Part shown: positions 1-21,142 of the stretch, piece after piece | Layout: each line of letters starts with the position of its first letter | Position numbering within the stretch: the stretch's first letter is position 1 | Assembly: GCA_963656105.1 (NCBI GenBank) | Contig: CAVKHW010000002.1 | Span: forward strand, 78,436 to 142,435 | Source: Eggerthellaceae bacterium | GTDB lineage: Bacteria; Bacteroidota; Bacteroidia; Bacteroidales; Bacteroidaceae | Direction of reading: 5' to 3' | Length of the DNA: 64,000 nt | The notes under the pieces: generated by a model | Told to the model about the DNA's origin: nothing | Seen by the model: only the letters and a program-made list of their open reading frames with translations | Databases searched by the model: none | Position numbers and translations under genes: made by a program

Positions 1-351
1 ACAGCTACGCTCGACTTCAATGTGGTGAAGGGGTTGCGCCCCACGCTTTATAGTGTGGCCGTGTCGCAAAACCCAGCCTCGACCTCCACCACGTTCATCA
101 TCAACCACGATTTCAATGGTTCGACTATGGATGTAAGGATAGAGGTGTACGACACAAGCGGTCGATTGTTGTGGACTCATTCCGAGAGTGGCGTGTCTAC
201 CAGTGGTGCTTACACTGTGGATTGGGATCTATGTCAGGACGGTGGCGGCCGATTGCAGACAGGAGTCTATCTCTATCGCGTCAGTGTGTCGAGCGATGGT
301 AGTTCCGAAGCGTCAAAAGCCAATAAACTCGTTGTCATTAACAATAAATGA
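1..351 (+). CDS. porU: T9SS sortase PorU, C-terminal fragment (5' truncated by window edge)
   Basis: Open frame from base 1. C-terminus is CTD-like (SQNPA...IEVYDTSGRLLW...WDL...GVYLYRV...KLVVI). Lies directly upstream of porV-ispF, the usual Bacteroidales order. Confidence 0.8.
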   Translation, partial: TATLDFNVVKGLRPTLYSVAVSQNPASTSTTFIINHDFNGSTMDVRIEVYDTSGRLLWTHSESGVSTSGAYTVDWDLCQDGGGRLQTGVYLYRVSVSSDGSSEASKANKLVVINNK

Positions 352-446
352 GCCTATATTGGCGTTTGAATAACAATTATAGATTTTGTCCGGTCCTTAC
401 GGTTCCGTCCGTTGTGGCCAGCAACCAAATACCAAAATATCAAAGC

Positions 447-1643
447 ATGAATAAGACCATGAGAATAATTGCGGCATGTCTTTTTGCCATGATTGTTGTG
501 CAAACCCGTGCACAAGACAAGAAGGACATATTTAACCCAGTCAACACGTCGGTAACTTCGCAGACCATTGCGCCCGATGCCCGTGCCGGTGGTATGGGTG
601 ACGTAGGTGCTGCTACCGACCCCGATGTGGTTTCGCAATACTGGAATCCTGCCAAATATCCGTTTACCATTAGCAGGGCTGGTGTGGCAGTCAACTATAC
701 GCCTTGGTTGCGCCAGTTGGTCAACGATATGGATTTGGCTTATCTTGCCGGCTATTACCGTATCGGTGACTACAGTGCCGTTTCGGGTTCATTCCGTTAT
801 TTCTCGCTTGGTGAGGTGATGATGGGCGACTACTCGTCGAGCACCAGTGGCAGTACGGCCAATGCGGGCAACACCATCAATCCGTATGAAATGTCGTTCG
901 ATGTGGCCTATTCGCTCATGCTCAGCGAGAAATTCTCCATTGCGGCTGCTGTGCGATGGATTTACTCCGACCTTACCTACGACTATACGCAAGACACCTC
1001 GCCCGGTTCGGCATTTGCTGCCGACCTCTCGGCCTACTATCAGAATTATGTCAACATCGGTTCGCACGAGTGTCAGTTGGGCTTGGGTCTTAACATTTCG
1101 AACATAGGTAGTAAGATCAAGTTTGGCGGCTACGACAACAGCGAGTTTATACCTACCAACCTGCGTCTTGGTGCAGCGCTGATGATTCCGGTCGACGAAT
1201 ACAACCGCTTTACCATTGCTGCCGATGCCAACAAGCTGCTTGTGCCCACCTACCCGAAGCAAAATGATGGTGAGACTACCGAGGATTACCAGCAGCGTGT
1301 GCAGAAGGATTATTACGATGTATCGAGTATTAGCGGTATCTTCAAGAGTTTCGGCGATGCACCGGGCGGTTTCAAGGAGGAGTTGCAGGAGATACAATGG
1401 AGTGTTGGCGCCGAGTACACCTACCATGACCAGTTCACCCTTCGTGCCGGCTATCACCATGAGAGCCAGAACAAGGGCAACCGCAAGTATTTCACAGTGG
1501 GTGGCGGTTTCAAGATGAGCGTGTTCTCGCTCGATGCCGGCTATGTTATAGCCACGGCCAAGAGCAATCCGCTTGACCAAACGCTTCGTTTCACGCTGAG
1601 CTTTGATATGGACGGAATCAAGGACTTGTTCAAACGCAGGTAA
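447..1643 (+). CDS. porV: T9SS outer-membrane shuttle protein PorV
   Basis: Signal peptide ending RA-Q; motifs IAPDARAGGMGD, WNPAKY, YTPWL, KGNRKYFT, NPLDQTLRF. Start reassigned to ATG 447. Confidence 0.92.
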   Translation: MNKTMRIIAACLFAMIVVQTRAQDKKDIFNPVNTSVTSQTIAPDARAGGMGDVGAATDPDVVSQYWNPAKYPFTISRAGVAVNYTPWLRQLVNDMDLAYLAGYYRIGDYSAVSGSFRYFSLGEVMMGDYSSSTSGSTANAGNTINPYEMSFDVAYSLMLSEKFSIAAAVRWIYSDLTYDYTQDTSPGSAFAADLSAYYQNYVNIGSHECQLGLGLNISNIGSKIKFGGYDNSEFIPTNLRLGAALMIPVDEYNRFTIAADANKLLVPTYPKQNDGETTEDYQQRVQKDYYDVSSISGIFKSFGDAPGGFKEELQEIQWSVGAEYTYHDQFTLRAGYHHESQNKGNRKYFTVGGGFKMSVFSLDAGYVIATAKSNPLDQTLRFTLSFDMDGIKDLFKRR

Positions 1644-1644
1644 G

Positions 1645-2130
1645 ATGACAAATATCAGAATAGGAATGGGCTACGACGTTCACCGTTTGGTGGAGGGGCG
1701 TGCCCTTTTTTTGGGAGGTGTCAAGATTGGCCACACCTTGGGTCTGCTGGGCCACAGCGATGCCGACGTGCTGATTCATGCGATATGCGACGCGCTGCTT
1801 GGCGCTGCCAACATGCGCGACATCGGTTACCATTTTCCGGATACATCGGCCGACACGTTGGATATGGACAGCAAGGTCATTCTTGCGCAGGTCGTTGCGC
1901 TGATTGCCACCAAAGGTTACCGGCTGGTTAACATCGACGCTACGGTATGCGCCGAGCGTCCGAAGCTCAATCCGCACATCCCGGCCATGAAGGCTTGCTT
2001 GGCCAGCGTGATGGGGTGCGATGAAGAGCAAGTGAGCATCAAGGCCACTACCACCGAACGACTTGGCTTTACGGGGCGCGAGGAAGGCATATCTGCCTAT
2101 GCCGTCTGTTTGGTAGAAAGGCAGGGCTGA
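1645..2130 (+). CDS. ispF: 2-C-methyl-D-erythritol 2,4-cyclodiphosphate synthase
   Basis: Motifs RIGMGYDVH, GHSDADVLIHAICDALLGA, KATTTERLGFTGREEG. Confidence 0.96.
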   Translation: MTNIRIGMGYDVHRLVEGRALFLGGVKIGHTLGLLGHSDADVLIHAICDALLGAANMRDIGYHFPDTSADTLDMDSKVILAQVVALIATKGYRLVNIDATVCAERPKLNPHIPAMKACLASVMGCDEEQVSIKATTTERLGFTGREEGISAYAVCLVERQG

Positions 2131-2315
2131 TAGTTTGCCGTCTGTAGCTCGTTCCCTATGCCTCAGCCGACAGCGGCTGTGGCCATTTGCCTTCGGGCGG
2201 TTCGGATTTTATTCTTCTCCTTATTGTACGATAAAAATGTTGCAACATGACTTGCCGTATGCAACATTTACAGGAAACCAATAATATTTAGCCGTCAATC
2301 CCATAATAGCGAAAG

Positions 2316-2361
2316 CAGAAGCCTCGCCGACAGGACATGTTTCCGTTGGCGAGGCTTTTGC
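2316..2361. terminator. Probable bidirectional intrinsic terminator between ispF and metG
   Basis: Inverted repeat GCAGAAGCCTCGCCGAC / GTTGGCGAGGCTTTTGC between convergent genes. Confidence 0.65.
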
Positions 2362-2397
2362 GTTGCGAGCCGTTGGTGTGCGGCCATTGCTAATGGT

Positions 2398-4473
2398 TTA
2401 TCCCACTTGGCTACCCGGTTTCACTTGTGCGAGCGTGGTGGTTACGTTGAGCGAACCGTCGAAATTGACGGCCGAGAGAATCATGCCTTGGCTTTCTATG
2501 CCCATCATCTTGCGTGCTGCGAGGTTGGCAATGAACAGCACGTCTTTGCCGATGAGGTCAGCCGGCTCGTAGAACTTGGCTATTCCCGAGAGGATGGTGC
2601 GGTCCTTTCCGCTGCCGTCGTCGATGGTGAACTGCAGCAGTTTGTTCGATTTCTTCACCTTTTGGCAGTCCTTGATGTGTCCGACGCGTATGTCGAGCTT
2701 TTCCCACTCCTCGAAGGGGACGTTGGGTTTCAGTGGCTGAGCCTTGTATTCCTTAGCGGCCTGTGCCTTCTCGTTGGCCTCCTTGGTGGCGGCCAGCTTG
2801 TCGAGCTGTTTCTGAATCTCTTCATCTTCTATTTTCTGGAACAGCAGTTGCGGTTCGTTGAGTTGGCTGCCCGGCTTCAGCAGGTCGGTGCGACCCAGTT
2901 GCGCCCAGTCGAATTCGTCCATGCCGATCATCCCACGGAGTCGTTTGCTCGAGAAAGGCAGGAACGGCTCGAAGGCGATGGCAAGGTTGGCCACCAGCTG
3001 CAGTGAGATGTAGAGTATGGTTTCCACGCGTTTCGGATCGGTTTTCCACACCTTCCACGGCTCGCACTCGGTGATATACTTGTTGCCGATGCGTGCCAGG
3101 TTCATGGCTTCTTTCTGAGCTTCGCGGAACTTGAAATTGTCGAGGAATTGTTCCACTTTCTCCTTTACGTCCTTGAACTCGTTGATGGCGTGGGTGTCGA
3201 CCTCTTGCAGCTCGCCACATTCGGGCACCACACCGTTCCAGTATTTCTTGGTGAGTTGCAGTGCGCGGTTCACGAAATTGCCGTAGATGGCCACCAGTTC
3301 CGAGTTGTTGCGCTCCTGGAAGTCGCGCCAGGTGAAGTTGTTGTCCTTGGTCTCGGGAGCGTTGGCCGTGAGCACATAGCGCAGCACGTCCTGCTTTCCG
3401 GGGAAATCCTTGAGGTATTCGTCGAGCCACACAGCCCAGTTGCGCGAGGTCGAGATCTTGTCGTTCTCCAGATTGAGGAATTCGTTGGCCGGCACGTTGT
3501 CGGGCAGGATGTAGTCGCCGTGCGCCTTGAGCATGGTGGGGAAGATAAGGCAGTGGAACACGATGTTGTCCTTGCCGATGAAGTGCACGAGCCGTGTTTC
3601 GGGGTCTTTCCACCATTTCTCCCACGAGCCCCATCGCTCGGGTTCGGCGTCGCAAAGCTCCTTGGTGTTGCTGACGTACCCGATGGGAGCGTCGAACCAT
3701 ACGTAGAGCACTTTGCCCTCGGCTCCCTCCACGGGCACGGGGATGCCCCAGTCGAGGTCGCGTGTCATGGCGCGTGGCTGCAAATCCATGTCGAGCCACG
3801 ACTTGCATTGTCCGTACACGTTGGGTCGCCACTCTTTATGGTTGCCGAGAATCCAGTCTTTCAGCCAACTTTGGTATTCGTTGAGTGGCAGATACCAGTT
3901 TTTGGTCTTGCGCACCTCGGGTTTGGCTCCGCTGATGGTGGAGTGTGGGTTGACCAGCTCCATGGGCGACAGGTCGCTGCCGCACTTTTCGCACTGGTCG
4001 CCGTAGGCGTTGGGGTTGCCGCAGTGGGGGCAGGTGCCCATGATGTAGCGGTCGGCCAGAAACTGGCGTGCTTCGGGGTCGTAATACTGCTCGCTCTCCT
4101 TTTCCACGAGCTTTCCGTCTTTATAGAGCTTGCTGAAGAAGTCGGCGGCAAACTGGTGGTGTATCTTCGATGTGGTGCGGCTGTATATGTCGAACGAGAT
4201 GCCGAACTCTTTGAACGATTCTTTGATAATCGCATGGTAGCGGTCGCACACGTCTTGTGGCGTGATGCCCTCTTTCTTTGCCCTGATGGTGATGGGCACA
4301 CCATGCTCGTCGGATCCTCCGATGAAGACGACGTCCTCCTTTTTCAGGCGGAGGTAACGCACATAGATGTCCGACGGCACATATACACCAGCCAGATGAC
4401 CGATGTGAACACCACCGTTGGCATAAGGCAGGGCGGCGGTGACAGTGGTACGCTTGAATTTCTTTTCTTCCAT
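2398..4473 (-). CDS. metG: Methionine--tRNA ligase
   Basis: [13 protein letters not shown] (HIGH motif), zinc knuckle CPHC...CEKC, KISTS, C-terminal tRNA-binding OB domain. TAATTTTG promoter on minus strand at 4504-4511. Confidence 0.97.
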
Positions 4474-4559
4474 CTGTTTTTATTCTTTATATGTAATGTA
4501 GTGCAAAATTACTAATTTTTATTCACTTAATAGGGTATGTAAAGGGGTAAAATGACAAT

Positions 4560-5618
4560 TTAGCGGTTTGTCGGTCGCTTGTTTTTCGCCTTGTTGAGTA
4601 GTGCCATCATTTTCTCCACAAGGCGCGGCACGGCGTAGCGTGTCACCGTGGCTTCGTCCACCCACACATAGTCTGCGGGAAGAGTGGGGGGCGTGTCGGC
4701 TTCGAGCACGAATAAGTCGGCCACGATAATGCGGTGGGTCAGCACATGGCGCACCCCCTGCTGCAGGGCTGTGAGCTGTCCGTCGAAGGCTGGCAGCTGA
4801 CAGTCTTCGTAGACGGGCGGTTCCCACAGCCCCTGCCAGATGTCGCCTGCTCCCCGCTGGTGCAGCGCCACCTTGCCCTGATGGTGCATCCATACGTAGG
4901 TCATACGTCGTGTCCGCGTCTTGGTGGCCTTTCGTTTCACAGGCAGTGAGCCAGTCTGTCGTTCGTGCCGCGCCACACAGTGGTCGGCCAGCGGGCAGAT
5001 GTCGCATGTGGGCGATTGGGGTGTGCATACTGTGGCACCCAAGTCCATGAGCGCCGAGTTGGCCTCGCGCCATGGTGCATTTCTTGGTGGGGTGGTGGCT
5101 TGCAGGCCGAAGAGCCGCTCGCCGGCCTGTCTGAACTCGCGCTTGCCCTCAGTGCTGTCGATGGGAGTGGCAATGCCGAGCAACCGTGCAAACACACGGT
5201 AAGCATTGCCGTCGATGGCCACGGCGGGCTGGTCGAAGGCAAAGGCGGCTATGGCCGAGGCAGTGTAGTCGCCCACGCCCTTCAGTTGTCTGATGTCGGT
5301 CAGTGTGTCGGGAAAGTGGCCCAGAGCCACTATCTGCCGGGCGGCGGCATGCAGGTTGCGTGCGCGTGAGTAGTAGCCCAGTCCTTGCCAAAGCTTCAGC
5401 ACCTCGTCTTCGGAGGCTGCGGCCAAATCGTCCACGTGCGGAAAGCGTTGCATGAACCGTTCCCAGTAGGCTTGTCCTTGTGCCACGCGCGTCTGCTGAA
5501 GGATTATCTCGCTGAGCCAGATGGCGTAAGGATCGCGTGTGCGACGCCAGGGTAGGTCGCGCCCCCGATGCCGATACCAGTCGGTCAGAAGCGACAAGAA
5601 AGCCGCAGCGTCTATCAT
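4560..5618 (-). CDS. mutY: A/G-specific adenine DNA glycosylase
   Basis: Motifs RDLPWR, WLSEIILQQT, WQGLGYYSRARNL, HhH LKGVGDYTA, Fe-S motif CTPQSPTCDICPLADHC. ATG 5618 overlaps the fur stop (ATGA). Confidence 0.93.
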   Translation of the reverse strand: MIDAAAFLSLLTDWYRHRGRDLPWRRTRDPYAIWLSEIILQQTRVAQGQAYWERFMQRFPHVDDLAAASEDEVLKLWQGLGYYSRARNLHAAARQIVALGHFPDTLTDIRQLKGVGDYTASAIAAFAFDQPAVAIDGNAYRVFARLLGIATPIDSTEGKREFRQAGERLFGLQATTPPRNAPWREANSALMDLGATVCTPQSPTCDICPLADHCVARHERQTGSLPVKRKATKTRTRRMTYVWMHHQGKVALHQRGAGDIWQGLWEPPVYEDCQLPAFDGQLTALQQGVRHVLTHRIIVADLFVLEADTPPTLPADYVWVDEATVTRYAVPRLVEKMMALLNKAKNKRPTNR

Positions 5619-6040
5619 AGGTTTCGGGCGCAAGTGGGGCAGATGCCCTTTATCATGTAGTTCACTGTGTGCGGCAAGTAGCCGCCGGGCAGTGGCACCG
5701 AGGGTATTGGCGTGTCGTGGAAACAGAATATGCGGTGGCAGTGCTCGCAGTAGAAATGCACATGCCGGTCGTCGTCTTCGTCGCTATTGCCGTGGCTTAG
5801 GCACAGTTCGTATTTCACTCCGCCGTCGCCGTCCTCGAGCTGATGCACGAGGTGATGGTCGCGGAAGATGACCAAGGCTCTGAATATGCCGCTTTTGTCG
5901 ATGGTGAGGATACGTTCTTCCAGTTCGGTCAGCGAGGCGGGATGCTCGTTGGCTGCCAAGGCTTTTGTCACCACGATGCGGTTGGCTGTGGGCTTGATGC
6001 CGTGGCGTTCGAGTAGTTTTACACAGGTTGTTTCATCCAT
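5615..6040 (-). CDS. Fur/Zur-family metal-dependent transcriptional regulator
   Basis: GIKPTANR, IDKSGIFRAL, HVHFYCEHC and C-terminal GICPTC. Start reassigned to ATG 6040; TAACTTTG promoter on minus strand at 6134-6141. Confidence 0.88.
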   Translation of the reverse strand: MDETTCVKLLERHGIKPTANRIVVTKALAANEHPASLTELEERILTIDKSGIFRALVIFRDHHLVHQLEDGDGGVKYELCLSHGNSDEDDDRHVHFYCEHCHRIFCFHDTPIPSVPLPGGYLPHTVNYMIKGICPTCARNL

Positions 6041-6247
6041 TTCGTTGCTGGGTTTCGTTGTTGTCGGGAGGTTGAGGCTGCGGCCGCCTGAAGAGACATG
6101 CCAACAGTTGCGACCCGGTGTTGCGTCGTGGCACAAAGTTAAGCATAACTATCGGGATGGACAAGAAATGGATGCATGTAAAACATAAAAATAAACACGA
6201 CAAAAAGTTGCTTCATTAGGGAGCGGCGTTCAGTTTGCGTCCTTTTG

Positions 6248-6585
6248 CGCGAAAAACGCTTGTTTTCGGATGATTTGCGTAAATGGTTGATATACCGCGT
6301 TTTATAGTCTTGGATTCCGTTTCTTGAAACGGGTCGTAATCTTCGGTTTTGCGATAGGCGCCGAATGACATTGCGATAAGTGCCCATTCGCGTTGCGGCT
6401 GGTGTCATACCGTGACGGGATTGGTACGCGCTCGCATTGCGGAAGATGGTCTATGGCAAGTTGAAGTGTTGCAAACGGCAGTTTTGCGGGACAGCCAGCG
6501 CCGTGCGATGGCGCAAAACCTACAGGTTTTCCGTTCTGGAACGCATGTGCGTGAGAGGTCTGTTTTTCAGAACTTTCCTGACAAA
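6248..6585 (+). repeat. Dispersed intergenic element, copy A (GTAA-N5-TGA motif + 22-bp-period palindrome array)
   Basis: Units begin at 6351, 6373, 6395, 6417, 6439 (and 6505). Motif spacing identical to copies at 29318-29683 and 41295-41658. Confidence 0.7.
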
Positions 6586-6665
6586 TAGGCGTGGCCGTTG
6601 TCTGTAAGTCTGGCTTTCCGGCCGATACATTTTGACGACAAAACACGGAAAACCATTTGTTTTCC

Positions 6666-6696
6666 TTTGCCGTTCCGCTCGTTTAAGCTACCTTTG
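6666..6696 (+). promoter_or_regulatory. Bacteroidetes housekeeping promoter for thyX
   Basis: TTTG (6666-6669), 19 nt, then TACCTTTG (6689-6696), matching -33 TTTG / -7 TAnnTTTG. Confidence 0.7.
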
Positions 6697-6717
6697 CAGT
6701 ATACAAAACAATAGGCA

Positions 6718-7623
6718 ATGAAAATCATCCAACCACAATTTGAGATATGGCCGCAAGGGCCGGGCCTCGACGGTCTGTACCGACAGATAGAGCGTGTGGG
6801 GCGCGTGTGCTACAAGAGCGAGGACCACTGTACGCCCACCTCTGCACGCCCCTTCGTGGAGCGCATGCTGAAAAACCGTCATTTGGCCATGCTCGAACAC
6901 GGCACGGTTTATCTGCAGACCGATGAGCAGAGTAGTTGCTGCGCCCGATATGCCGCCAACAAGTTCTCGATGGTTCATGTCGTCGACGGGGTGGCTTATA
7001 TAACCACCAACCTGAGAGTGCTGGCCGAGAACGAATGGATGGACGATCTGCAGCAGTTGTGCGAGCCCGCCGTGCACCACGAGCGCCGCGTCACCGTGCA
7101 CTTCACCACACAGATAGCTATCACGCGCGAGTTCAACCGCCATCGTGTCGACTCGATGGCCGAGCAGTCGACCCGCTACTGTAACTATTCGAAGGACAAG
7201 TTCGACAACGAGATAGCTGTCAACTTGCCTCGCTTTGTAGCTTCGCTGCCGTCCGACGGGCTGCAGCAGAGCCTCACCGCGGGTGCTGTAGCCCCGACAG
7301 GTGCCGACCTTGTGGAGATGGCGCGCAAGGTGGCCACGGGCGAGGCCTCCGACATGGAGAACTGGCTCTTTGCCAATATGGCCGCCGAAAGGGCCTACAT
7401 GAACCTCGTGGCCGCAGGCCGCAAGCCGCAGGAGGCGCGTGTGGTGTTGCCGCTCGATACCAATACCGAACTGGTGCACACGGCCTTCGTGGCCGACTGG
7501 AAACACTTCTTCGACCTCCGTGCGCTGGGTACGACGGGCGCACCCCATCCCGATGCCAAGGCTCTGGCACAGCCCCTCTACGAGCATTTTGTGGAAGAGG
7601 GATGGATAGCGGACAACCAGTAG
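6718..7623 (+). CDS. thyX: FAD-dependent thymidylate synthase
   Basis: ThyX signature REFNRHRVDSMAEQSTRY; also HLAMLEH, QEARVVLP, WKHFFDLR, AHP-like APHPD. Confidence 0.9.
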   Translation: MKIIQPQFEIWPQGPGLDGLYRQIERVGRVCYKSEDHCTPTSARPFVERMLKNRHLAMLEHGTVYLQTDEQSSCCARYAANKFSMVHVVDGVAYITTNLRVLAENEWMDDLQQLCEPAVHHERRVTVHFTTQIAITREFNRHRVDSMAEQSTRYCNYSKDKFDNEIAVNLPRFVASLPSDGLQQSLTAGAVAPTGADLVEMARKVATGEASDMENWLFANMAAERAYMNLVAAGRKPQEARVVLPLDTNTELVHTAFVADWKHFFDLRALGTTGAPHPDAKALAQPLYEHFVEEGWIADNQ

Positions 7624-7691
7624 CCGACACATCGGGCATGCAGCCCACAAGAACAACAATACATCATGCACCATAAAGCAACTTTGAAAAC

Positions 7692-9218
7692 ATGAAACGA
7701 CATTACGCATTGTTACTCGCAGCCCTCCTCGTCTGGACGGCAGGCACGGCAAACGCCATAACGCGCCAGCGCCTGGCCACCTACGCCGCATCGCTGAAAG
7801 GAAAGAAAAAGGCCGAACTCAAGACGGCTCTCTACCAACTCATGAACGACGGCAAGAGTACGTTAGCCTACGGATCGGGATCGGCCAACACCTGGTGGGG
7901 CTTCTATGTCACCGACCGCGACCCGAAAACCAACGAGGTCATCAACCGATATAGCGGCGCGACATTCTATTTCGGTGACCGAGGCTCGGCCGTTACGGGC
8001 ATGAACATCGAGCACTCGTTCCCCAAGAGCTGGTGGTGCAGTACGAAGAACGCGGCCTACTGCGACCTCTACCACCTCTACCCGTCGCCCTCCGACGGCA
8101 ACAGCGCAAAGAGCAACTACCCCATGGACGTGGTGGCCAACGCCAAAACGCAGGAAGAAGGCTACGACAAGGTGGGCACTGCCACCCATGTCAACGGCAG
8201 TGCGTGGGAGCCGGGCGACCGCTTCAAGGGCGAGTTTGCGCGCAGCTACATGTATATGGCCGTGACTTACTCTAACCTCACGTTCCAAAAAGACGGACTG
8301 AAGACCATGGAGAAAGACGCATCGGGCTATCCCGGCATGCTGCAGTGGGCCACCGACCTCTACCGTGCGTGGAGCAAGCTGGACAAGGTGGACAGCACGG
8401 AGGCAGCGCGCAACAACGCTGTGGCCGACATACAGCACAACCGCAATCTCTTCATCGATTTCCCCTTCCTGTGCGAATATGTGTGGGGCGACAGTGTGGA
8501 CGTGGCTTTCGACCCCGACAATGCCCTCTCGACGGCTTCCGATGACAGTCGCTACGGCTCCTTCTCGCCGTCGCCGGTGACCCCCGACGACTCTACCGAA
8601 ACGGGCGACGGCTATGTCTTTGCCAAGCTGCAGCAGGTGATGCCTACGGCTGGCAAGCGCTACCTCGTAGTGGTCAGCTATGGCAGCCGACTCTATGCCG
8701 CCAAGCCCGTGACACTCTTAAGTGGCCGAAACTATGGCTATCTCTACACCGATGGCGTGATCGACGAGGACGGCCGGATTACGGTCACCGACGACACCGA
8801 TGCCTATACCCTTGAGGAAGCCGACGGTGGCTTCTATCTGAAGGACAGTCAGGGACGCTACTATTATCAGGACGGCACCTACTCGTCGTTCACACCGACA
8901 ACATCGGTCAGCGATGCCGACGTGTGGGAGGTGACTGCCAACGCCGACAGTACCTATACCATCAAGGCTTCCGACTCGGGCAATGTCATCATGTATAGCG
9001 GCAGTCACGCTTCGTTTGGCAACTATGGCGCAGACAAGCAGTCGGGCAACATCCTGCCCTATCTTTATGAGGAGCAGAAGCAGACGGACGGCATCGCGCA
9101 ACCTGCACGGACAGAGGTTGTGGCCGAGGCGGTCTTTACGCTGCAGGGTGTGCGCGTCAGCAAGCCCACCCAGCCGGGCATCTACATTCGAGGCGGCAAG
9201 AAGTTTGTGGTGAAATAA
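7692..9218 (+). CDS. Secreted endonuclease I-family nuclease with T9SS C-terminal domain
   Basis: Signal peptide; MNIEHSFPKSW, DLYHLYP, WEP..FKGEFAR, RNNAVADIQHNRNLFID; short CTD (VFTLQGVRV...GIYIRGGKKFVVK). Confidence 0.85.
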   Translation: MKRHYALLLAALLVWTAGTANAITRQRLATYAASLKGKKKAELKTALYQLMNDGKSTLAYGSGSANTWWGFYVTDRDPKTNEVINRYSGATFYFGDRGSAVTGMNIEHSFPKSWWCSTKNAAYCDLYHLYPSPSDGNSAKSNYPMDVVANAKTQEEGYDKVGTATHVNGSAWEPGDRFKGEFARSYMYMAVTYSNLTFQKDGLKTMEKDASGYPGMLQWATDLYRAWSKLDKVDSTEAARNNAVADIQHNRNLFIDFPFLCEYVWGDSVDVAFDPDNALSTASDDSRYGSFSPSPVTPDDSTETGDGYVFAKLQQVMPTAGKRYLVVVSYGSRLYAAKPVTLLSGRNYGYLYTDGVIDEDGRITVTDDTDAYTLEEADGGFYLKDSQGRYYYQDGTYSSFTPTTSVSDADVWEVTANADSTYTIKASDSGNVIMYSGSHASFGNYGADKQSGNILPYLYEEQKQTDGIAQPARTEVVAEAVFTLQGVRVSKPTQPGIYIRGGKKFVVK

Positions 9219-9248
9219 CGCTTCGCCAACCGAAGCCATTCAAAAAGG

Positions 9249-9279
9249 GCCATCTCCGTCATGCCAAGACGGGGATGGC
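9249..9279. terminator. Probable bidirectional intrinsic terminator
   Basis: GCCATCTCCGTC-N7-GACGGGGATGGC between convergent genes. Confidence 0.65.
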
Positions 9280-9303
9280 TCTCAATCGTTTCCAAGTGTT
9301 TGT

Positions 9304-10749
9304 TTATTCGAATGTAACGTCCTCCACATGCTCACCGATGAAGAGATGGGCAAAGTCGGACGTCTTGTACCACTTGGGCTTGCCGGGCATCTGGTCGTAG
9401 ATGTGCTGACCGTTGATGCGTAGGTTCTTGAAGTGTATGCCACTGATGGTGCGCCCGGCATCGTAGCCGGTCATGAGCGAGAGGTTGGCGCGTGTGCCGT
9501 TGTAACTGATGTCTTCAAGCCGTATGTCGTGTATGCCGCCGCCCGGAGCGTGGCAGTATTTGCGGTTGTAGCACACACGGAAATTGAAGAGCATACCCTC
9601 GTCGATGTCTTCGATGCGTATGTTGCGGAACGTCATGTTGCGCACCACGTTGTTGTCGCCGTTGTTGATGGCTATGCAGCCCTGATAGTCCACCTGCTTC
9701 TCGCGCTGCTGCAGGATGTCTATGTCCTCATAGGTCACCTGCTCGATGACCTCATGCCGGTCGATGTCTCCGTGGAGGCCAATCATGATGGGGTGGGCCA
9801 CATCGGCCCAGTACACCGCATCCTTCACGCTGATGTTGCGGCAGCCGCCTCGATAGCCCTTGCGTGTGCAGTAGATGGTGGAGCAGTCGTCGCTGGTGCG
9901 ACAAAACACATGATTGTAACTCACGTCATTACTGGCAAAGACGTTCATGCCGTCGCCCCAGCTGTACCAGCTGATGACCTTGGCATTGCTGACACTGACG
10001 CGGTCGCTGCCGCCTACGGGTATCTGCGTGGTGACAATACCGTCTACGGCTACATCGTGCGAATATCGTACCATCACACCCTCTTGACGGCGCTCCGGGT
10101 TCACAATGCCGTGGCCCGCCACCTTGGCGCCCGTGGCCTGCCACACCGAGGCGTAGCCTTTGATGTAGGCTCCGCCAGCCACATAGAGCACCTGACCGCT
10201 ACCCACACGTATGGAATCGTTGCCGAGGTCGTAATAGCCAGGACCGTAATACAGCACGTTTCTGCGCTCCACGCCATAGGCCTTGGCCACCTGACGGGCG
10301 TTGGTGTAGACGGGCGTTGCGGCATTGGCAAAGAGCTGAAGGTTGTGGTAGATGTCGCCGTTGACCTCTATCGAGAGGTCGAGCGGACGGTCTATGCTGA
10401 AACTGACGGTATTGTCGTGAACCGATGCGGGGATGTTCTTCGACAACGGACGCACACGGGCGGTCTGCACTTTGCCCTTGTTCCACGTAACCTCCACATC
10501 AACGCGACCCGAAAAGTCGAAGTAGGCCACCGATGTTTTCTCTACGCAATGGCGCCCGTTGTCGGTGCGGTCCACGTTCCACGAGTAGGTATCGACTGCT
10601 TGCCAGTCGCCTCCCGCTATGCGCACGCGCACCGTGTAATCGGTGTTCAGGGGCGCACCGGCTGGTGCCGGGTAGGTAGTCAGCGTGTCGGCGAAAAGCA
10701 CAGATGCGAACATTTGCACCAATAGGATAATCAGCGAACGATGTATCAT
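9304..10749 (-). CDS. Secreted pectin-lyase-fold (GH28-like) glycoside hydrolase
   Basis: Signal peptide; YYGPGYY, YVAGGAYI, WGDGM, RTSDDC, WADVAHPI and beta-helix-like repeats. Exact family and substrate uncertain. Confidence 0.7.
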   Translation of the reverse strand: MIHRSLIILLVQMFASVLFADTLTTYPAPAGAPLNTDYTVRVRIAGGDWQAVDTYSWNVDRTDNGRHCVEKTSVAYFDFSGRVDVEVTWNKGKVQTARVRPLSKNIPASVHDNTVSFSIDRPLDLSIEVNGDIYHNLQLFANAATPVYTNARQVAKAYGVERRNVLYYGPGYYDLGNDSIRVGSGQVLYVAGGAYIKGYASVWQATGAKVAGHGIVNPERRQEGVMVRYSHDVAVDGIVTTQIPVGGSDRVSVSNAKVISWYSWGDGMNVFASNDVSYNHVFCRTSDDCSTIYCTRKGYRGGCRNISVKDAVYWADVAHPIMIGLHGDIDRHEVIEQVTYEDIDILQQREKQVDYQGCIAINNGDNNVVRNMTFRNIRIEDIDEGMLFNFRVCYNRKYCHAPGGGIHDIRLEDISYNGTRANLSLMTGYDAGRTISGIHFKNLRINGQHIYDQMPGKPKWYKTSDFAHLFIGEHVEDVTFE

Positions 10750-10752
10750 GAC

Positions 10753-13437
10753 TTAAAAGTTTATGTATTTTTTGCCATTACGGATAATGAGACCCTTGTA
10801 GTTGGCGTTTACGCGTTGCCCACTGGCATTGTAGCATTTGTCGTTGGCTATGCGGTCGTTGGCCGTATTGTGTATGCCTTCGGGCACGTTATAGGGTATC
10901 AGCTCAATGGGAAAGTTAGTGGGCGCAAAGTGGGTGGTATGGTCTATCTCGCCGTTTTCGCCTATGGTGAAGTAGCACGGACGCTTGTTGTGCATCTGAT
11001 ACCAGTCGGTGCCTGTGGCCTTACGGAAGTAATAGGGCGTGCGTGTGCTGGCCGTCATGCGCATGGTGAGAGCCAGGAAGCGTTGGTCGGCAAGGCTCTG
11101 TAGGTCGTAGCAGGGACCATCCGCATTCTCGTTGGTTATTTTCCACGCCTGCTGTTGCAATGCGTTGTCCTCTTTCTTTGGTGTGAACGTAGTATATGCG
11201 TACGTCGTTCCCTCTATGGTGTTGTTGGTAAGATAGGTGTCGTGGAAACGGTCGCGGATGAGATAGTAGCCGTCAGGAATGGCGCTGTCGAGGCTGTCGC
11301 TGATGTATGCCGCATAGCAGACCGTGTCGCTCTTGCCATAGATGGTATAGACCAGTGTGTCGATGACGCTCGTCTGAAGGTTGTCGTAGGTCACGCTGCT
11401 GGCTTCCGAACCGCTGCTCCACTGGAAAGTAATGTCCTTGAACGTGCTGGGAACATAGGGAGCGAACGACACCTTGTCGCCCGGTTGGCACACATACTCC
11501 ACCGTGTCGACCTTAACCTCGCCATTGACCGACATCTGCGGCCGGAAGTATTTCATGCGCACGCTAACAGTATCGTATGAGATGGCACCGCCTTGGTTCT
11601 TATATGCCACCACGAACACACTGTCCGAATGGATGTTCTTGGCCGTAATGCTGTTGCCCGTAGCGCCTGTGCTCCATGTGAATGTGCCGTAACCGCCTGT
11701 GGCTGACGCGCTCAACGTTATGGCATCGTCATAGAAAATGGTAATCGAATCGGTAGATGTTACACCGTCGTAAGTGGCCGAAGCGGTTACGGGTGACGCC
11801 TCACAGTCGCCCTGCACAGCTATGGAGAAACAGAGATGGCTCTTCACGCCATTCTGGTTGGTATAGGTGACGCGGTAAACATAACTCTCGTTGGCGGTAA
11901 TGGTGATGTCGCGTGTGGTCGCGCCAATGTTCCATTGCCACAGACCTGTGTCTTCGCTGTTGTCGCGAAGTTGTGGCAACAGCTTGACAACGGTTCCTTT
12001 GGTCACGCCCGTGTTGTTGTCGGTCTTGAACGTATTGGTCAGCCCTCCCAGTTCGTTATGGTTGAGTGTGTCGCCGTCTACCACCATTTTCGGGGCAAGC
12101 GGAGTGGGTATCTCCTCTGCCGTGGCCGAGTGGTCGCGGTAGTTCATCAGTACGGAGTAACCCAAATGGTCGTAACCTCCGCTGGTGGAACCTTGTCCGC
12201 CACCATCGGGACCGTCCTTGGTCATGTTGGCATAGGCCATTTCCGAGTAGGGCATCTTGGCTCCGAACACGCCTTCGTAAAGACCTATCACGGTTCCCCA
12301 GTAGGGACGTATCTGGTTGCCGAGGGCTGGTCCCGTCTGCGTCCACACACGGCTGTCAGTGTAGTAAAGACCATTGGTGCCGTACTTATAGTTGGTCCAG
12401 GGTAAACCTTCGATGCTTTGCGTCTGTGCAGCGACATATTCAATGCCTGCGGCCAGACGATTGTCCATGAACGAAAACAGGTCGTCGCCCTGATTCCAGG
12501 CCATGTGGGCAATGTCGACAGCCAGTCCGAGAGCCATCGTGGCGTGGCCGATATCGCGGCCGCTCTCCTGCATCTGGCCTATCTTACCATACGAAGAAGC
12601 CTTCAAACTATCGGGAGTGTCGCTAACCGTCACCACCAGATTGCCTATGAACTCGGTCAGACCGTCATTCAAAATGGGGTCGGCCGTGCGAGGGTTGACA
12701 AAAGTTCCCACTTGGTCGTACTTCAAATAGCTGAGGCCTTGGTTATAGATGAACACGTCGTCGCACAACACACCGATGGACATCACGCAGAGGGCGTTGC
12801 ACAATCCCCAGTTGCTCCAATAGTGGCCGGGTGCTTGCCACCACTTGCCAGTGTTCTCCCAAGTGCCGTTACGGGCGCGGAGAAAGCCTATGGCCGATGG
12901 ATACCACACCCGCAGCATCCACTGGCGGAACGTCTCGAAACGCTCGGGCGACCAACCGTCGAAGTCGCGGAGCAGCTCGGCGGCTTGCGCAAACTGATAG
13001 CCATAGAGGCCAGCGGCAAGCGCATAGTTGGAGTCGCCGCCTATGGCCTTGGTGGTGTTGGCCCACTGCATGAGCACATTGACAGCATGGGTAGCGTTGT
13101 CAGTGTTGCCCGTTATTTTCCAAACGAGGGCATTTTGGTAAGCTATCGTGGCGCCGCGGGCAGCGTTGATATAGTTCTCGCCCGACCCACCACCGCGCAC
13201 AATGGTTTGCACCGGATAGGTTTGGGCGGTCGACTGCGCATAGGCGGCATTGGTAAGCACATTGACTGCTGCAGTGATGGTGGCGTCGCCTTTGTCGAGG
13301 AGATGCTTGATGCGGTCGAAATCTTCTTGTGTATGCAGTCCTCCGGGATGCACAAATCCACGGTTTTTGTTATAAATTTGTGCCGTAGCACCTATTGTGA
13401 GGAACAGGACTGCAAGAAATAAGTAGGCTCTTTTCAT
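10753..13437 (-). CDS. Alginate-lyase-like family protein with accessory beta domains and T9SS C-terminal domain
   Basis: Signal peptide (ATA-Q); FVHPGGLHT, SNWGLC, QESGRDIGHATMALG; CTD CYNASGQRV...GLIIRNGKKY. Substrate unknown. Confidence 0.72.
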   Translation of the reverse strand: MKRAYLFLAVLFLTIGATAQIYNKNRGFVHPGGLHTQEDFDRIKHLLDKGDATITAAVNVLTNAAYAQSTAQTYPVQTIVRGGGSGENYINAARGATIAYQNALVWKITGNTDNATHAVNVLMQWANTTKAIGGDSNYALAAGLYGYQFAQAAELLRDFDGWSPERFETFRQWMLRVWYPSAIGFLRARNGTWENTGKWWQAPGHYWSNWGLCNALCVMSIGVLCDDVFIYNQGLSYLKYDQVGTFVNPRTADPILNDGLTEFIGNLVVTVSDTPDSLKASSYGKIGQMQESGRDIGHATMALGLAVDIAHMAWNQGDDLFSFMDNRLAAGIEYVAAQTQSIEGLPWTNYKYGTNGLYYTDSRVWTQTGPALGNQIRPYWGTVIGLYEGVFGAKMPYSEMAYANMTKDGPDGGGQGSTSGGYDHLGYSVLMNYRDHSATAEEIPTPLAPKMVVDGDTLNHNELGGLTNTFKTDNNTGVTKGTVVKLLPQLRDNSEDTGLWQWNIGATTRDITITANESYVYRVTYTNQNGVKSHLCFSIAVQGDCEASPVTASATYDGVTSTDSITIFYDDAITLSASATGGYGTFTWSTGATGNSITAKNIHSDSVFVVAYKNQGGAISYDTVSVRMKYFRPQMSVNGEVKVDTVEYVCQPGDKVSFAPYVPSTFKDITFQWSSGSEASSVTYDNLQTSVIDTLVYTIYGKSDTVCYAAYISDSLDSAIPDGYYLIRDRFHDTYLTNNTIEGTTYAYTTFTPKKEDNALQQQAWKITNENADGPCYDLQSLADQRFLALTMRMTASTRTPYYFRKATGTDWYQMHNKRPCYFTIGENGEIDHTTHFAPTNFPIELIPYNVPEGIHNTANDRIANDKCYNASGQRVNANYKGLIIRNGKKYINF

Positions 13438-13517
13438 GTTTTATAAGGTTTATCTTTGTGTAGGTACATAGTTCATGTCGCTGAAATATTCGGCTGGCGA
13501 ATGAGGCAGAAGACAAA

Positions 13518-14021
13518 TCAGAATCCAGCTGCTCTAAGTGATTGCCTTACCATCTTTCGTGTTCGGTAAAGCCTTCCTTCGACGGCGCGCAGCGAGTAGT
13601 GTGTGATGGTTGTTATCTCGCTTGGCGATTTGTCTTCGAATCGGCTCAGTTGGTATACCCATGCATCGCTCTTCGACATGCGGTTGACAACTTTCCGTTC
13701 AGCCTGCAACAGTTGGCGGCATTCCAGTTCGCAAGGTTCGGTGGCTGTTTGGGCAGTGTATTGTTTTTGCCTGCGGCAGCAATAAGCATGATGCCGTAGC
13801 CAGTCGACGCGCATTTGATAGGCTATGGTGACGATTAGGCCAGTGAGATGGTTGGGAAGAATGATATCTATTGTCATCAGTTTAACAAACACTTCTTGCA
13901 CGAGATCTTTCCCTTCTTCCTCGGGTATGTTGGCTTTTCGGAAGATGGCCAGAAGCATGGCGCGCTTGTTTTCGTACAGACGGCCAATGATGTCGTTGCG
14001 TTGTGCGGTTTCCGTAGGCAT
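13518..14021 (-). CDS. ECF-type RNA polymerase sigma factor
   Basis: Region 2 DLVQEVFVKL...VDWLR; region 4 LSRFEDKSPSEI...SLRAVEGRLYRTRK. TACCTTTG promoter (minus, 14052-14059) favours start 14021. Confidence 0.85.
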   Translation of the reverse strand: MPTETAQRNDIIGRLYENKRAMLLAIFRKANIPEEEGKDLVQEVFVKLMTIDIILPNHLTGLIVTIAYQMRVDWLRHHAYCCRRQKQYTAQTATEPCELECRQLLQAERKVVNRMSKSDAWVYQLSRFEDKSPSEITTITHYSLRAVEGRLYRTRKMVRQSLRAAGF

Positions 14022-14171
14022 TAAAGCAGGTTTAAGGATTGTTTTACGTAGCAAAGGTAACGAACAAAATCTTTTTCTGCAAGCGTTAAATGCCATGGTA
14101 ATGTCTACCCCGTCCAGATGATGTATTTATCGTAAAACCTACTGGGAAACAATGAGTTATGATGAGATTGT

Positions 14172-14201
14172 ATTTGCACTTTTCCATCGGAAAGTGCAAA
14201 T
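14172..14201 (-). terminator. Hairpin downstream of the AraC sensor gene
   Basis: ATTTGCACTTTTCC-ATC-GGAAAGTGCAAAT immediately after the stop codon. Confidence 0.5.
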
Positions 14202-14205
14202 GGCG

Positions 14206-16944: not shown

Positions 16945-16987
16945 GTGCTTTAGGCGGGTTGTGCGTGGTGAGGGCGTTTGCTGTGGT

Positions 16988-17953
16988 CTATCGGTTTCCG
17001 TTGCGTATGTTGCGTGGGTGGTGCATCAGTATTTCCTGTCTGAGCGACTCGTCGTCCATGTGGATGTAAATTTCGGTGGTTCCGATGTCGGCGTGTCCGA
17101 GCAACACCTGTATGATGCGCAGGTCGGCACCGCCTCTGAGCAGTGCTGTGGCGAAGCTGTGTCGCAGCGTGTGGGGCGAGATGGTCTTGCGGATGCCGGC
17201 TGCTTCGCCCAGTCGCTTTATCATGATGAGTATCATGGTGCGTGTGAGATGGTGTCCGCGTCGGTTGAGAAACACGTAGTCCTCTTCGCCCGGCTTGATG
17301 TTCATCTGTCTTCGGTCGTCGAACCAGAACCCCAGTTCGTTGACGGCTCGTTCGGAAATGGGCACCAGCCGTTCTTTGTTGCCCTTGCCCACGACGCGCA
17401 GGAAACGGTCGTCGAGGAACAGGTCGGACAGTTTCAGATTGACCAGTTCGCTGACGCGCAACCCACACGAAAAGAATACTTCCACGATGGCACGGTTGCG
17501 GTGGCCTTCGGGCGAGGTGAGGTCGATGGCCTCTTCGAGCCTGTCCACCTCTTCGGTCGACAGGTACTCGGGTATGTGTTTGGGCAGATGGGGCGATTCG
17601 AGCAGTTCGGTCGGGTCGATGTCGAGGTATCCGTCGACCAGCAGGAAGTGGTAGAACGACCGCACGCCGCTCAGTATGCGTGCCTGACTTTTGGCTCCCA
17701 CGCCTTTGTCGTGCAGCCAAGCGGCAAAAAGTTCCAGGTCTTCGAGCTTTACGTCGAGTGGTGTGAGGCCTTGTTCGCCGAGATGGTCGAGCAGCATGCT
17801 GATGTCGTGCTGATAGGCGTCAATGGTGTTGGGCGAGTAGCTGCGTTCCAGTTTCAGGTAACGCATGTAGCGGCGCAACATGTCTGGCAGAGCTGTTGTG
17901 CGAGCCGTTTTGTCGTCCCATTTTGTCAACGATTTGCTTTGCGCTTTATCCAT
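16988..17953 (-). CDS. xerD: Site-specific tyrosine recombinase XerD
   Basis: SPNTIDAY..D, GLRVSEL, GKGNKERLVP, SPHTLRHSFATALL.GGADLRIIQVLLGH.DIGTTEIY. True start may be 17881. Confidence 0.88.
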   Translation of the reverse strand: MDKAQSKSLTKWDDKTARTTALPDMLRRYMRYLKLERSYSPNTIDAYQHDISMLLDHLGEQGLTPLDVKLEDLELFAAWLHDKGVGAKSQARILSGVRSFYHFLLVDGYLDIDPTELLESPHLPKHIPEYLSTEEVDRLEEAIDLTSPEGHRNRAIVEVFFSCGLRVSELVNLKLSDLFLDDRFLRVVGKGNKERLVPISERAVNELGFWFDDRRQMNIKPGEEDYVFLNRRGHHLTRTMILIMIKRLGEAAGIRKTISPHTLRHSFATALLRGGADLRIIQVLLGHADIGTTEIYIHMDDESLRQEILMHHPRNIRNGNR

Positions 17954-18072
17954 TTTCGCTTACCTTTGCAGAAAAGAGGGTGCCAAGGGAAGGGCAGATA
18001 TATGGCCTGTCGGTGTCTTTTGTCCTCTTCTTAATGGCAAAATTAGCGAAAACGAAAGAAAAGACCAAGGAA

Positions 18073-18513
18073 ATGAAGAAAATTCAGATTGTGAACGGAC
18101 CCAACCTTAACCTGCTCGGAACACGCGAACCGGGCATCTACGGCAGTAGCTCGTTTGAGAGTTACCTGCCCGCTTTGCGCCAGCGTTATCCCGATGTGCA
18201 GATCGACTATTATCAAAGCAATATCGAAGGTGAACTTATCAACAAGATGCAGGAAGTGGGGTTCGGCTACGATGGCATTGTGCTCAATGCCGGAGCTTAT
18301 ACCCACACATCCGTAGCGTTGCTCGACTGCATCCGTTCGCTGCGTTGCCCCGTGGTGGAGGTGCATATTTCGAATGTGCACCAGCGTGAGGAATTCCGTC
18401 ACCACTCCATGATTTCGGCGGGATGCAAGGGCGTGATATGCGGGTTTGGTCTCGACAGTTACCGCTTGGCCGTAGAAGCGCTGCTGGCCCAAGCTGCACA
18501 ACACAAGGGCTAA
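18073..18513 (+). CDS. aroQ: Type II 3-dehydroquinate dehydratase
   Basis: NGPNLNLLGTREPGIYG, NAGAYTHTS, EVHISNVHQREEFRHHS. Confidence 0.96.
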   Translation: MKKIQIVNGPNLNLLGTREPGIYGSSSFESYLPALRQRYPDVQIDYYQSNIEGELINKMQEVGFGYDGIVLNAGAYTHTSVALLDCIRSLRCPVVEVHISNVHQREEFRHHSMISAGCKGVICGFGLDSYRLAVEALLAQAAQHKG

Positions 18514-18517
18514 GGCC

Positions 18518-19195: not shown

Positions 19196-19235
19196 AACGA
19201 CAGGCCGCAGATAGCATGCCGTTTCGTCGTGCCCA

Positions 19236-19279
19236 TTAGTGTGGTTGCATAGCTTCGTTAGCGTGGTTGCATAGCCCCG
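19236..19279. repeat. 22-bp tandem repeat x2
   Basis: TTAGTGTGGTTGCATAGCTTCG / TTAGCGTGGTTGCATAGCCCCG. Confidence 0.75.
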
Positions 19280-19326
19280 AAGTAGCAATAGGCCAACGCT
19301 CTCATCCCGATGGTTATAGTATCGTG

Positions 19327-19390
19327 AAAAATAATAGCTTAAATTCTAAAAATAATAGCTTAAATTTAAAAAATTTAAGCTATTATTTTT
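19327..19390. repeat. AT-rich direct repeat plus perfect 20-bp-arm palindrome
   Basis: AAAAATAATAGCTTAAATT at 19327 and 19348; 19348-19367 is the exact reverse complement of 19371-19390. Confidence 0.85.
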
Positions 19391-21135: not shown

Positions 21136-21142
21136 ACGCAGG

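What the first reader, a model, noticed from the sequence alone, without database searches (positions are those of the whole stretch)
6248..6585. Dispersed ~340-bp non-coding element: three diverged copies with identical motif spacing (copy A; others at 29318-29683 + and 41295-41658 -)
Seen: the intergenic blocks A (+), B (29318-29683, +) and C (41295-41658, -) share one ordered architecture. Each has an AAA(A/T)ACG motif starting 27 nt before GTAA-N5-TGA. The first unit of a 22-bp-period array begins exactly 72 nt after the start of GTAA (6279->6351, 29378->29450, 41598->41526). The unit is a degenerate 19-bp palindrome GCGAWAG-N5-CTWTCGC plus 3 nt, and units 1, 2 and 5 are best preserved in all three. 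TACAGGTT lies at +170 from unit 1 in A and C; CAGAA lies at +217 in all three; GACAA lies at +229 in A and B. Sequence between the motifs is heavily diverged, yet no net indel separates them. All three point toward a downstream gene with its own TAnnTTTG promoter (thyX, PEtN transferase, M23 peptidase). Established: 22 bp is about two helical turns, so the sites lie on one DNA face; the GTAA...TGA block loosely resembles an IHF/HU-type site. Inference: selection acts on geometry rather than sequence, as expected for a multi-site nucleoprotein platform (nucleoid-organising or recombination site, or enhancer-like element). Alternatives are an old non-autonomous mobile element or a structured RNA. 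I recognise no named family for it, and the 22-nt period argues against a protein-coding repeat.
Basis: partly seen in the sequence, partly recalled or inferred. Interest (0 to 1): 0.8.

Follow-up and report, generated by a model that had tools for sequence, protein, structure and literature searches.

The report
Chromosome-wide 22-base register in Prevotella
The three look-alike intergenic blocks are copies of a roughly 390-base non-coding element, and their 22-base arrays are the strongest spots of a faint 22-base rhythm that runs in step through genes and spacers across this bacterium's chromosome, which points to an unknown way of organising bacterial DNA.

Summary
Observation confirmed and much enlarged. 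The blocks belong to a ~390-bp intergenic element (77 end-to-end copies, 141 loci in 3.1 Mb; median identity 42%, length nearly fixed), built like the 188-bp PINSR repeat of P. intermedia. No RNA structure, inverted ends or target duplication. The larger result: the arrays lie on a chromosome-wide 22-bp register. The window's four arrays, 50 kb apart, agree mod 22 within 2 bp. DNA 0.45-6 kb away, codons included, carries a faint copy of the array consensus in phase (r 0.50-0.64). AA/TT shows a sharp line at 11.00 bp over 200-kb contigs. Against a relative, 58 of 94 indels of 12-600 bp are within 2 bp of a multiple of 22 (21 expected). The line appears in 16 of 24 Prevotella genomes sampled and in none of 15 genomes from other genera. 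Best reading (0.5): a two-fold symmetric protein coats the chromosome at one dimer per 22 bp, as phage GA-1 p6 does locally, and selection keeps its register. The protein is unidentified; the signal does not weaken away from arrays; how elements spread is unknown.

The parts
6189..6585 (+). Copy A, end-to-end element, between fur (divergent) and thyX
   Evidence: profile hit columns 4-400, E 6e-47; neighbours by Pfam; same site and length in G110, absent in G228
6189..6212 (+). Left end site, A-rich N8 then ACA (6200-6202), quasi-palindromic
   Evidence: ACA 96-99% conserved in 75 copies
6252..6258 (+). AAA(A/T)ACG box
   Evidence: also in G002, G047, G187, G202 elements
6279..6305 (+). Two-fold TAA-N5-TGA-TA-ATCA-N5-TTA site, IHF-type
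   Evidence: column profile; 29 of 75 copies match WATCAR-N4-TTR in at least one half (the IHF consensus is recalled)
6351..6457 (+). Five 22-bp units (19-bp palindrome GCGAWAG-N5-CTWTCGC + 3 nt); unit-1 centre 6360 sits on the chromosome register
6535..6583 (+). Right module: CT box, T-tract-CAGAA, GAA-N8-ACA (ACA 6581-6583, 381 bp from left ACA)
   Evidence: C, T, A, A, C columns 99-100% conserved; same GAA-N8-ACA end in PINSR
29284..29685 (+). Copy B, end-to-end; array 29450-29556, unit-1 centre 29459
   Evidence: E 3e-38; present in G110, which lacks the upstream chorismate mutase gene (offset 574 = 26x22+2)
41292..41692 (-). Copy C, end-to-end, between recG and an M23/LysM gene; array 41526-41420, unit-1 centre 41517; right T-tract replaced by a G-run
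   Evidence: E 8e-38; G110 orthologue has the normal right end
56783..56907 (-).
   Evidence: E 2e-18; shared with G110
1..64000 (.). Faint 22-bp register running through genes and spacers of the window
   Evidence: array centres 6360, 29459, 41517, 56893 have contig positions 6, 5, 7, 5 mod 22; window 1-40000 best period 22.008, score 67 against 40 elsewhere in 19-25 bp

Best explanation
The chromosome is organised on a 22-bp lattice. Shown: a palindromic 22-bp consensus recurs faintly and in phase through coding and non-coding DNA for tens of kb, the arrays are its strongest expression, and fixed insertions and deletions are mostly +-1 bp or multiples of 22. Inferred: a two-fold symmetric DNA-binding protein (11 bp per monomer, 22 bp per dimer) forms a continuous, registered coat on the chromosome; weak selection or protected-site mutation writes its preferred sequence into synonymous and spacer positions; out-of-register indels are purged. 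The elements are high-affinity stretches of that lattice with added sites (IHF-type palindrome, ACA end sites) for a second factor; they are gained and lost between species by an unknown copying route and are kept only in register.
For: Whole-contig AA/TT line at 10.99-11.00 bp in 11 of 14 large contigs, C1 power 66 against control maximum 11.5. Neighbouring array centres differ by about 0 mod 22 on either strand (R 0.43, n 66, p about 5e-6; under 12 kb R 0.66, n 24). DNA 0.45-6 kb from arrays correlates with the array matrix at shift 0 (r 0.52, 0.50, 0.64, 0.56 for codon positions 1-3 and non-coding; at most 0.30 at other shifts), on both sides of the element. Coding DNA alone gives 2.71 against 1.41 after synonymous shuffling, 378 windows. 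G000/G110 offsets of 12-600 bp: 38 of 53 and, in an independent 396 kb, 20 of 41 within 2 bp of 22n. Three filled/empty sites differ by 414-418 bp although the remaining spacer shows little or no homology, which fits selection on net length. Element-poor contigs C118, C10, C120 lack the line. In Prevotella sp. oral taxon 299 the flanks follow that genome's own array (r 0.55) better than G000's (0.42). GA-1 p6 binds one monomer per 11 bp (PMC10899789).
Against: No protein was found: HU (31 of 31 genomes), HU-HIG (31 of 31) and DUF2582 (20 of 20) occur equally where the line was not detected; p6 family 0 of 5 with a blank control. Local 11-bp power does not fall with distance from arrays (2.2, 2.7, 2.7, 2.1), so nucleation by the arrays is not supported. 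+-1 bp slips are common (127 in 789 kb) and periods are non-integer in some lineages (21.93-21.95). G187 and G227 carry elements without a clear line, G002 shows it in 1 of 2 stretches, and G018 has a strong line with no array of this type in 40 kb. In OMA14 the PINSR spacing test is clear only to 5 kb (R 0.75, n 20) and within the scan-wide null at 8 kb. Sequence alone cannot separate selection from phase-dependent mutation.
Confidence: 0.5

Rival explanations
1. Mutational ruler: a structure on the DNA (or a repair or recombination process working in 22-bp steps) biases both substitutions and indel lengths; the register is a footprint, not a selected trait.
For: Signal is present at codon positions 1 and 2 as well as 3; many unrelated 22-bp tandem duplications occur (42 arrays of period 22); clean 197-198 bp insertions of unrelated sequence.
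Against: Net 22n differences across spacers whose sequence has wholly turned over and across gene gain (574 bp) are easier to explain by selection; conserved motif columns in resident copies show purifying selection. It still needs a physical ruler.
Confidence: 0.18
2. Protein-free DNA-DNA register: the lattice lets any two duplex segments (plectoneme arms, sister chromosomes) pair or pack in phase, like the 21-22 bp interspersed homology that is read as paired in Neurospora meiotic silencing.
For: bioRxiv 10.1101/573907 reports 21-22 bp periods as pairable and models quadruplex contacts at 22 bp; the lattice is palindromic, so it matches in both orientations; no candidate protein found; no decay from arrays.
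Against: Amplitude outside arrays is only a few percent per base, far below the 4-6 bp identity tracts used there; lineage-specific consensus words and fixed-spacing accessory sites look like protein recognition.
Confidence: 0.12
3. The elements are ordinary non-autonomous mobile units (minimal att-type circles or MITE-like) whose arrays bind a recombination accessory protein; the chromosome-wide rhythm is a separate or secondary effect.
For: Subfamily with 65-91% identity; 3 of 17 mapped G000 loci empty in G110 and 2 G110 loci empty in G000; patchy distribution; direct ACA end sites and an IHF-type site resemble recombination sites; a quarter of PINSR sites differ between two strains (PMC4755523).
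Against: No inverted ends or target duplication, no IS110 enzyme, only a resolvase fragment, no tyrosine recombinase enclosed by element ends; resident orthologues keep motifs and length; it does not explain why copies 6-50 kb apart are in register.
Confidence: 0.13
4. Local regulatory platform (enhancer-like) for the neighbouring gene.
For: The three window copies precede a TAnnTTTG promoter; promoter-like -7 boxes are rotationally phased to the lattice (R11 0.30, n 100).
Against: Orientation to genes is near background, 11 of 64 fully flanked copies lie between convergent genes; neighbours are functionally unrelated; copy A is absent in G228 with fur-thyX intact.
Confidence: 0.05
5. Structured non-coding RNA.
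For: Palindromic units could form hairpins.
Against: No Rfam match other than two tRNAs in the window; RNAalifold gives 0 pairs on 23 copies; pairing in units 1, 2, 4, 5 does not exceed shuffles, unit 3 does (3.08 against 2.61 +- 0.13, probably subfamily structure).
Confidence: 0.02

Closest known systems
[quoted passage not shown] 2016, PMC4755523)
   Same: High-copy intergenic non-coding repeat of near-fixed length; copies recovered in G166 with the paper's primer show an IHF-type site, 22-bp-period palindromes and the same T-tract..GAA-N8-ACA right end; its host also shows the lattice line.
   Different: 188 bp against about 390; different unit words; left end inverted (TGT-N8-TTC) rather than direct; profile cross-hits are weak (best E 3e-5, reversed control 7e-3). 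The text and supplements I read give no function and mention neither the 22-bp period nor a register.
Classical 10-11 bp A-tract periodicity of prokaryotic genomes (PMC3372288, PMC3940949, PMC4132750)
   Same: AA/TT period near 11 bp, carried mainly by third codon positions.
   Different: Those signals are described as about 100 bp long and not extending beyond about 150 bp in many genomes. Here the line is narrow, phase-coherent over 10^4-10^5 bp, has a 22-bp fundamental with a sequence consensus, and goes with quantised indels. The broad 10.5-11.5 band is not raised in G000 (ratio 1.04).
Protein p6 nucleocomplex of phages phi29 and GA-1 (PMC10899789)
   Same: Dimers repeat every 24 bp (phi29) or monomers every 11 bp (GA-1) along DNA, phased by sequence from recognition regions.
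   Different: Known on a small phage genome; reads bendability, not a palindromic word; no p6 family match in 5 genomes (control blank). A works-like analogy only.
BrickBuilt MITE of Porphyromonas gingivalis (PMC4596501)
   Same: Dispersed intergenic element with an internal array of about 22-23 nt units in an oral Bacteroidales.
   Different: 23-nt direct units, variable unit number, IS5-family terminal inverted repeats; none of these here.
REP/BIME with IHF site (RIB/RIP) of enterobacteria (recalled)
   Same: Intergenic palindromes combined with an IHF-type site.
   Different: No conserved hairpin pairing, fixed 381-bp frame, and copies in long-range register.
21-22 bp interspersed homology in Neurospora MSUD (10.1101/573907)
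   Same: Same period; duplex-duplex register.
   Different: Eukaryotic, engineered test sequences between homologues; not a genome-wide imprint.

Membership tests
PINSR | 188-bp length and consensus | tested here: not met
   381 bp ACA to ACA; PINSR profile gives 8 hits at E<=1 in G000, 5 in elements, best 3e-5
PINSR | High-copy, intergenic, non-coding | tested here: met
   141 loci, none inside a called gene
PINSR | Shared architecture (IHF-type site, 22-bp palindrome array, GAA-N8-ACA right end); my derivation, not the paper's definition | tested here: met
MITE | Terminal inverted repeats | tested here: not met
   end sites are in direct orientation
MITE | Target-site duplication | tested here: not met
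   no within-copy excess identity at 28 positions round ACA, 76 copies; copies are old, so a trace could have decayed
MITE | Empty orthologous sites | tested here: met
   boundaries could not be resolved
MITE | Cognate autonomous element with the same ends | tested here: inconclusive
   no left/right end pair around a gene in G000; 0 matches in viral contigs; DDE families not searched; draft assembly
IS110/IS1111 | DEDD recombinase (PF02371) in the genome | tested here: not met
   0 matches
Bacteroidales MTn / tyrosine-recombinase att site | TTAC-N5-AA att site and linked integrase | tested here: not met
   att words from Table S3 are not the consensus at either end; 8 integrases, none enclosed by element ends
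Bacteroidales MTn / tyrosine-recombinase att site | Excised circle | not testable with these tools
   no sequencing run was listed
BrickBuilt | IS5-type TIRs and 23-nt unit | tested here: not met
Structured RNA family | Rfam match, consensus structure, covariation | tested here: not met
REP/BIME-RAYT | GTAG-type REP hairpin and linked RAYT | not tested
   no GTAG in the consensus; RAYT linkage not searched
Classical A-tract periodicity | Short range (about 100-150 bp), broad band | tested here: not met
   normalised power keeps rising from 1-kb to 40-kb windows (2.3 to 7.4) at exactly 11.0
p6-type nucleocomplex | p6 homologue (PF17548) | tested here: inconclusive
   0 of 5 genomes, nothing rang in controls
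p6-type nucleocomplex | Periodic footprint on DNA | not testable with these tools
   needs footprinting

The most novel reading that the evidence does not exclude
Part of the genus Prevotella packs its whole chromosome in a regular, phase-locked chromatin with a 22-bp repeat, so strict that it has written its binding word into synonymous codons and quantised indels and even gene gains to multiples of 22 bp; PINSR and the many 22-bp array repeats of Prevotella are its high-affinity sites.
Probability: 0.5. Interest if true: 0.97.

Novelty: categorically new. Interest (0 to 1): 0.9.

Why it matters
Bacterial chromatin is thought to lack a regular repeat, and known 11-bp signals fade within about 150 bp. 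A register coherent over 10^4-10^5 bp, with indels quantised at 22 bp, would be a new level of genome organisation and a new constraint on genome evolution (indel spectrum, codon choice, acceptance of foreign DNA). It gives PINSR and similar unexplained Prevotella repeats a common reading. It is directly testable: cultured P. intermedia-group and oral taxon 299 strains give a predicted footprint period and phase at every base, and +11 versus +22 bp insertions are a clean genetic test. The element by itself is a new variant of the PINSR kind; the 'categorically new' rating is for the register.

Tried and rejected
Structured RNA. TSD and inverted ends. Autonomous partner: IS110 none, resolvase fragment only, integrases unlinked; viral contigs 0 and 0 matches; phage records no match. 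Sequencing runs: none was listed, so circles, strain polymorphism and expression are untested. Candidate proteins: codon-based expression ranking put HU and the DUF2582 winged helix on top among small basic non-ribosomal proteins, but these and HU-HIG occur in genomes with and without the line. Gene starts and stops, stop-to-stop distances and two other repeat families show no clear phase (R at most 0.06 for starts and stops). IHF-type palindromes outside elements: no clear phase, and my matrix was off-centre. The 21.14-bp line in G453 is local to one window and was dropped. One search used a wrong anchor column; one search corrects it and is the one cited. Five of the six single pattern hits were not elements. 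In one search I dropped 20 offsets above 600 bp, 15 of them back-and-forth jumps between paralogues; with them the count is 60 of 114 (25.9 expected). A matched control pair without the line (G010/G288, 75-87% identity) could be read only from one hit table: 0 of 10 offsets of 14-118 bp within 2 bp of 22n (2.3 expected; worked by hand), too few to be more than consistent. The sigma-70 scan found no promoter in 6100-6750 and does not cover Bacteroidetes promoters.

Full report
OBSERVATION. The three blocks are real. Ungapped, they share 40-44% identity (20-31% shifted) and 77 of 337 triple-identical columns against 20.6 +- 4.5 in shuffles. Leave-one-out profiles recover A and B well and C weakly. 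Iterated nhmmer on the 3.12-Mb, 131-contig genome gives 138 loci at E<=0.01, with a best E of 0.5 on the reversed genome. The full model gives 141 loci, 77 end-to-end, 66 of them 399-404 columns long. Median pairwise identity is 42% (31-91%). None lies inside a called gene and orientation is near background (my own simple gene caller). The host is in the same genus as PINSR-bearing genomes and its recG is closest to a Prevotella record.

ANATOMY. Left end site with ACA; AAA(A/T)ACG; a two-fold TAA-N5-TGA..TCA-N5-TTA site (IHF-type; the label rests on a recalled consensus, 29 of 75 copies match it exactly in one half); five 22-bp palindromic units; a CT box; T-tract-CAGAA; GAA-N8-ACA. The two ACA are in direct orientation, 381 bp apart in 29 of 76 copies and 379-385 in 68 of 76. 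There is no target duplication, no consensus RNA structure, no Rfam family.

RELATIVES. The right-end pattern occurs in 11 of 401 genus genomes (22 in G000, 16 in G228, 6, 4, 2, and six singles of which one is an element). The array junction occurs in 44 of 401, seven or more times in 12. G110 (81-85% identity in flanks) has A, B and C at the same sites and lengths; across 8 orthologous pairs (some partial) identity runs from 39% at low-information columns to 93% at high ones, with four-fold sites at 62%. G228 lacks A. Of 17 G000 loci mapped in the first 393 kb of G110, 13 are shared, 3 empty and 1 of another form; 2 G110 loci are empty in G000. PINSR copies found in G166 with the published primer have the same right end, IHF-type site and 22-bp grammar but an inverted left end. 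G187 and G227 have both end sites in the other orientation relative to the interior (read by eye).

THE REGISTER. The control for indels gave the lead: 78 element-free intergenic gaps differed between G000 and G110 by 0, +-1 or multiples of 22. Along syntenic contigs the offset mod 22 drifts slowly. Offsets of 12-600 bp lie within 2 bp of 22n in 38 of 53 cases and, in a second 396 kb, 20 of 41 (58 of 94; 21 expected; 20 larger offsets dropped). Three filled/empty pairs differ by 417, 418 and 414 bp although the remaining spacer shows little or no homology. With elements masked, AA/TT has a narrow line at 11.0; power grows with window size to 40 kb; 11 of 14 large contigs peak at 10.99-11.00 (weakly in three), C5 at 11.04, and the element-poor C118 and C10 not at all. 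Neighbouring arrays are in register (R 0.43, n 66), the window's four within 2 bp over 50 kb. Folding DNA 0.45-6 kb from arrays on 22 bp returns the array matrix at shift 0 in all four site classes (r 0.50-0.64; A at third positions swings +9/-8%), on both sides. Coding DNA alone carries it, mostly through synonymous choice.

DISTRIBUTION. A harmonic score on 20-50 kb samples peaks at 21.93-22.04 in 16 of 24 Prevotella handles (G002 in 1 of 2 stretches) and in the named record NC_022111.1 (score 141); it does not in 8 others, in 15 genomes of other genera, B. finegoldii or E. coli. Two cautions: many positives were chosen because they had arrays, and 20-kb samples can miss a signal as weak as G000's. 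Array words differ by lineage. In the published OMA14 table, same-strand PINSR neighbours within 5 kb give a best period of 21.96 over an 8-40 scan (R 0.75, n 20 of 177 copies' neighbour pairs); at 8 kb the peak is within the null.

MECHANISM. Shown: register, imprint, quantised indels, purifying selection on resident motifs, turnover of copies. Inferred: a physical ruler with 22-bp step and two-fold symmetry, most simply a protein dimer coat, as GA-1 p6 (11 bp per monomer) forms on phage DNA. Against a simple nucleation model, local power is flat with distance from arrays. The protein was not found. Rivals are a purely mutational ruler, protein-free duplex-duplex register, and an independent mobile element.

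LITERATURE SEEN. PMC4755523: abstract, passages, sections 13 and 14, supplement S2 rows, S3 whole, S6 part 1 of 2; its figure with the consensus and the .doc/.ppt supplements were not readable and could bear on what the authors noticed. PMC4596501, PMC3940949, PMC4132750, PMC3372288, PMC10899789, 10.1101/573907: passages only. Searches that found no report of a long-range 11/22-bp register in Prevotella: searches (0 papers; 0; listings, nothing relevant apart from the Neurospora preprint), plus 15, 29, 52, 88, 93. Most subscription papers are not in this library; Mrazek's 2010 survey is recalled, not read. Earlier notes of this scan describe 22-bp arrays in other genomes but, in the lines shown, no register.

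VERDICT. Observation confirmed; element a new variant of the PINSR kind; chromosome-wide register very probably real (about 0.93) and without a precedent that I could find; protein-coat mechanism 0.5. Interest 0.9.

Noticed in passing
window 41309-41320: Run of 12 G (minus strand) replaces the conserved T-tract of copy C; the G110 orthologue is normal, so this may be a sequencing artefact.
   Followed up: partly
window 28799-29212: Stand-alone chorismate mutase gene upstream of copy B is absent in G110; the offset is 574 bp (26x22+2).
   Followed up: partly
window 40985-41741; L236:25118-28793: B. finegoldii has recG-ndk-M23; here copy C stands where ndk is.
   Followed up: no
G000:C118 (115 kb), C10, C120: Element-poor contigs without the register; C118 is AT-rich with phage-like genes by eye.
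   Followed up: partly
G000:C16:27704-27994 (L210): DUF2582 winged-helix protein with a K/A/T-rich N-terminal tail and ribosomal-like codon use; a likely abundant nucleoid protein, divergent in Prevotella (36-49 bits against 50-97 in other genera).
   Followed up: partly
G000 genome: Promoter-like TAnnTTTG boxes are phased to the lattice at 11 bp (R 0.30, n 100).
   Followed up: partly
G000 genome (e.g. C2:97630 region): Other repeat families: a 21-bp AT-rich tandem unit (about 30 arrays), ISPi2-like IS4 ends and REP-like hairpin units, often beside the elements.
   Followed up: no
L105 (G110) against G000:C2:33311 and L123 against C30:18217: Clean 197-198 bp insertions of mutually unrelated non-coding sequence; indel sizes cluster at 22, 88, 132 and 198.
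   Followed up: partly
L222 (G453), L232 (G447), L226 (G436): 21-22 bp tandem arrays in other genera of the family, without a detected long-range line.
   Followed up: partly
genomes G010, G288, G370, G417: Prevotella genomes without the line have 19-22 HU-HIG matches against 2-13 in those with it (G437, no line, has 6).
   Followed up: no
window 49432-49768: Two divergent tRNA genes (Rfam).
   Followed up: no
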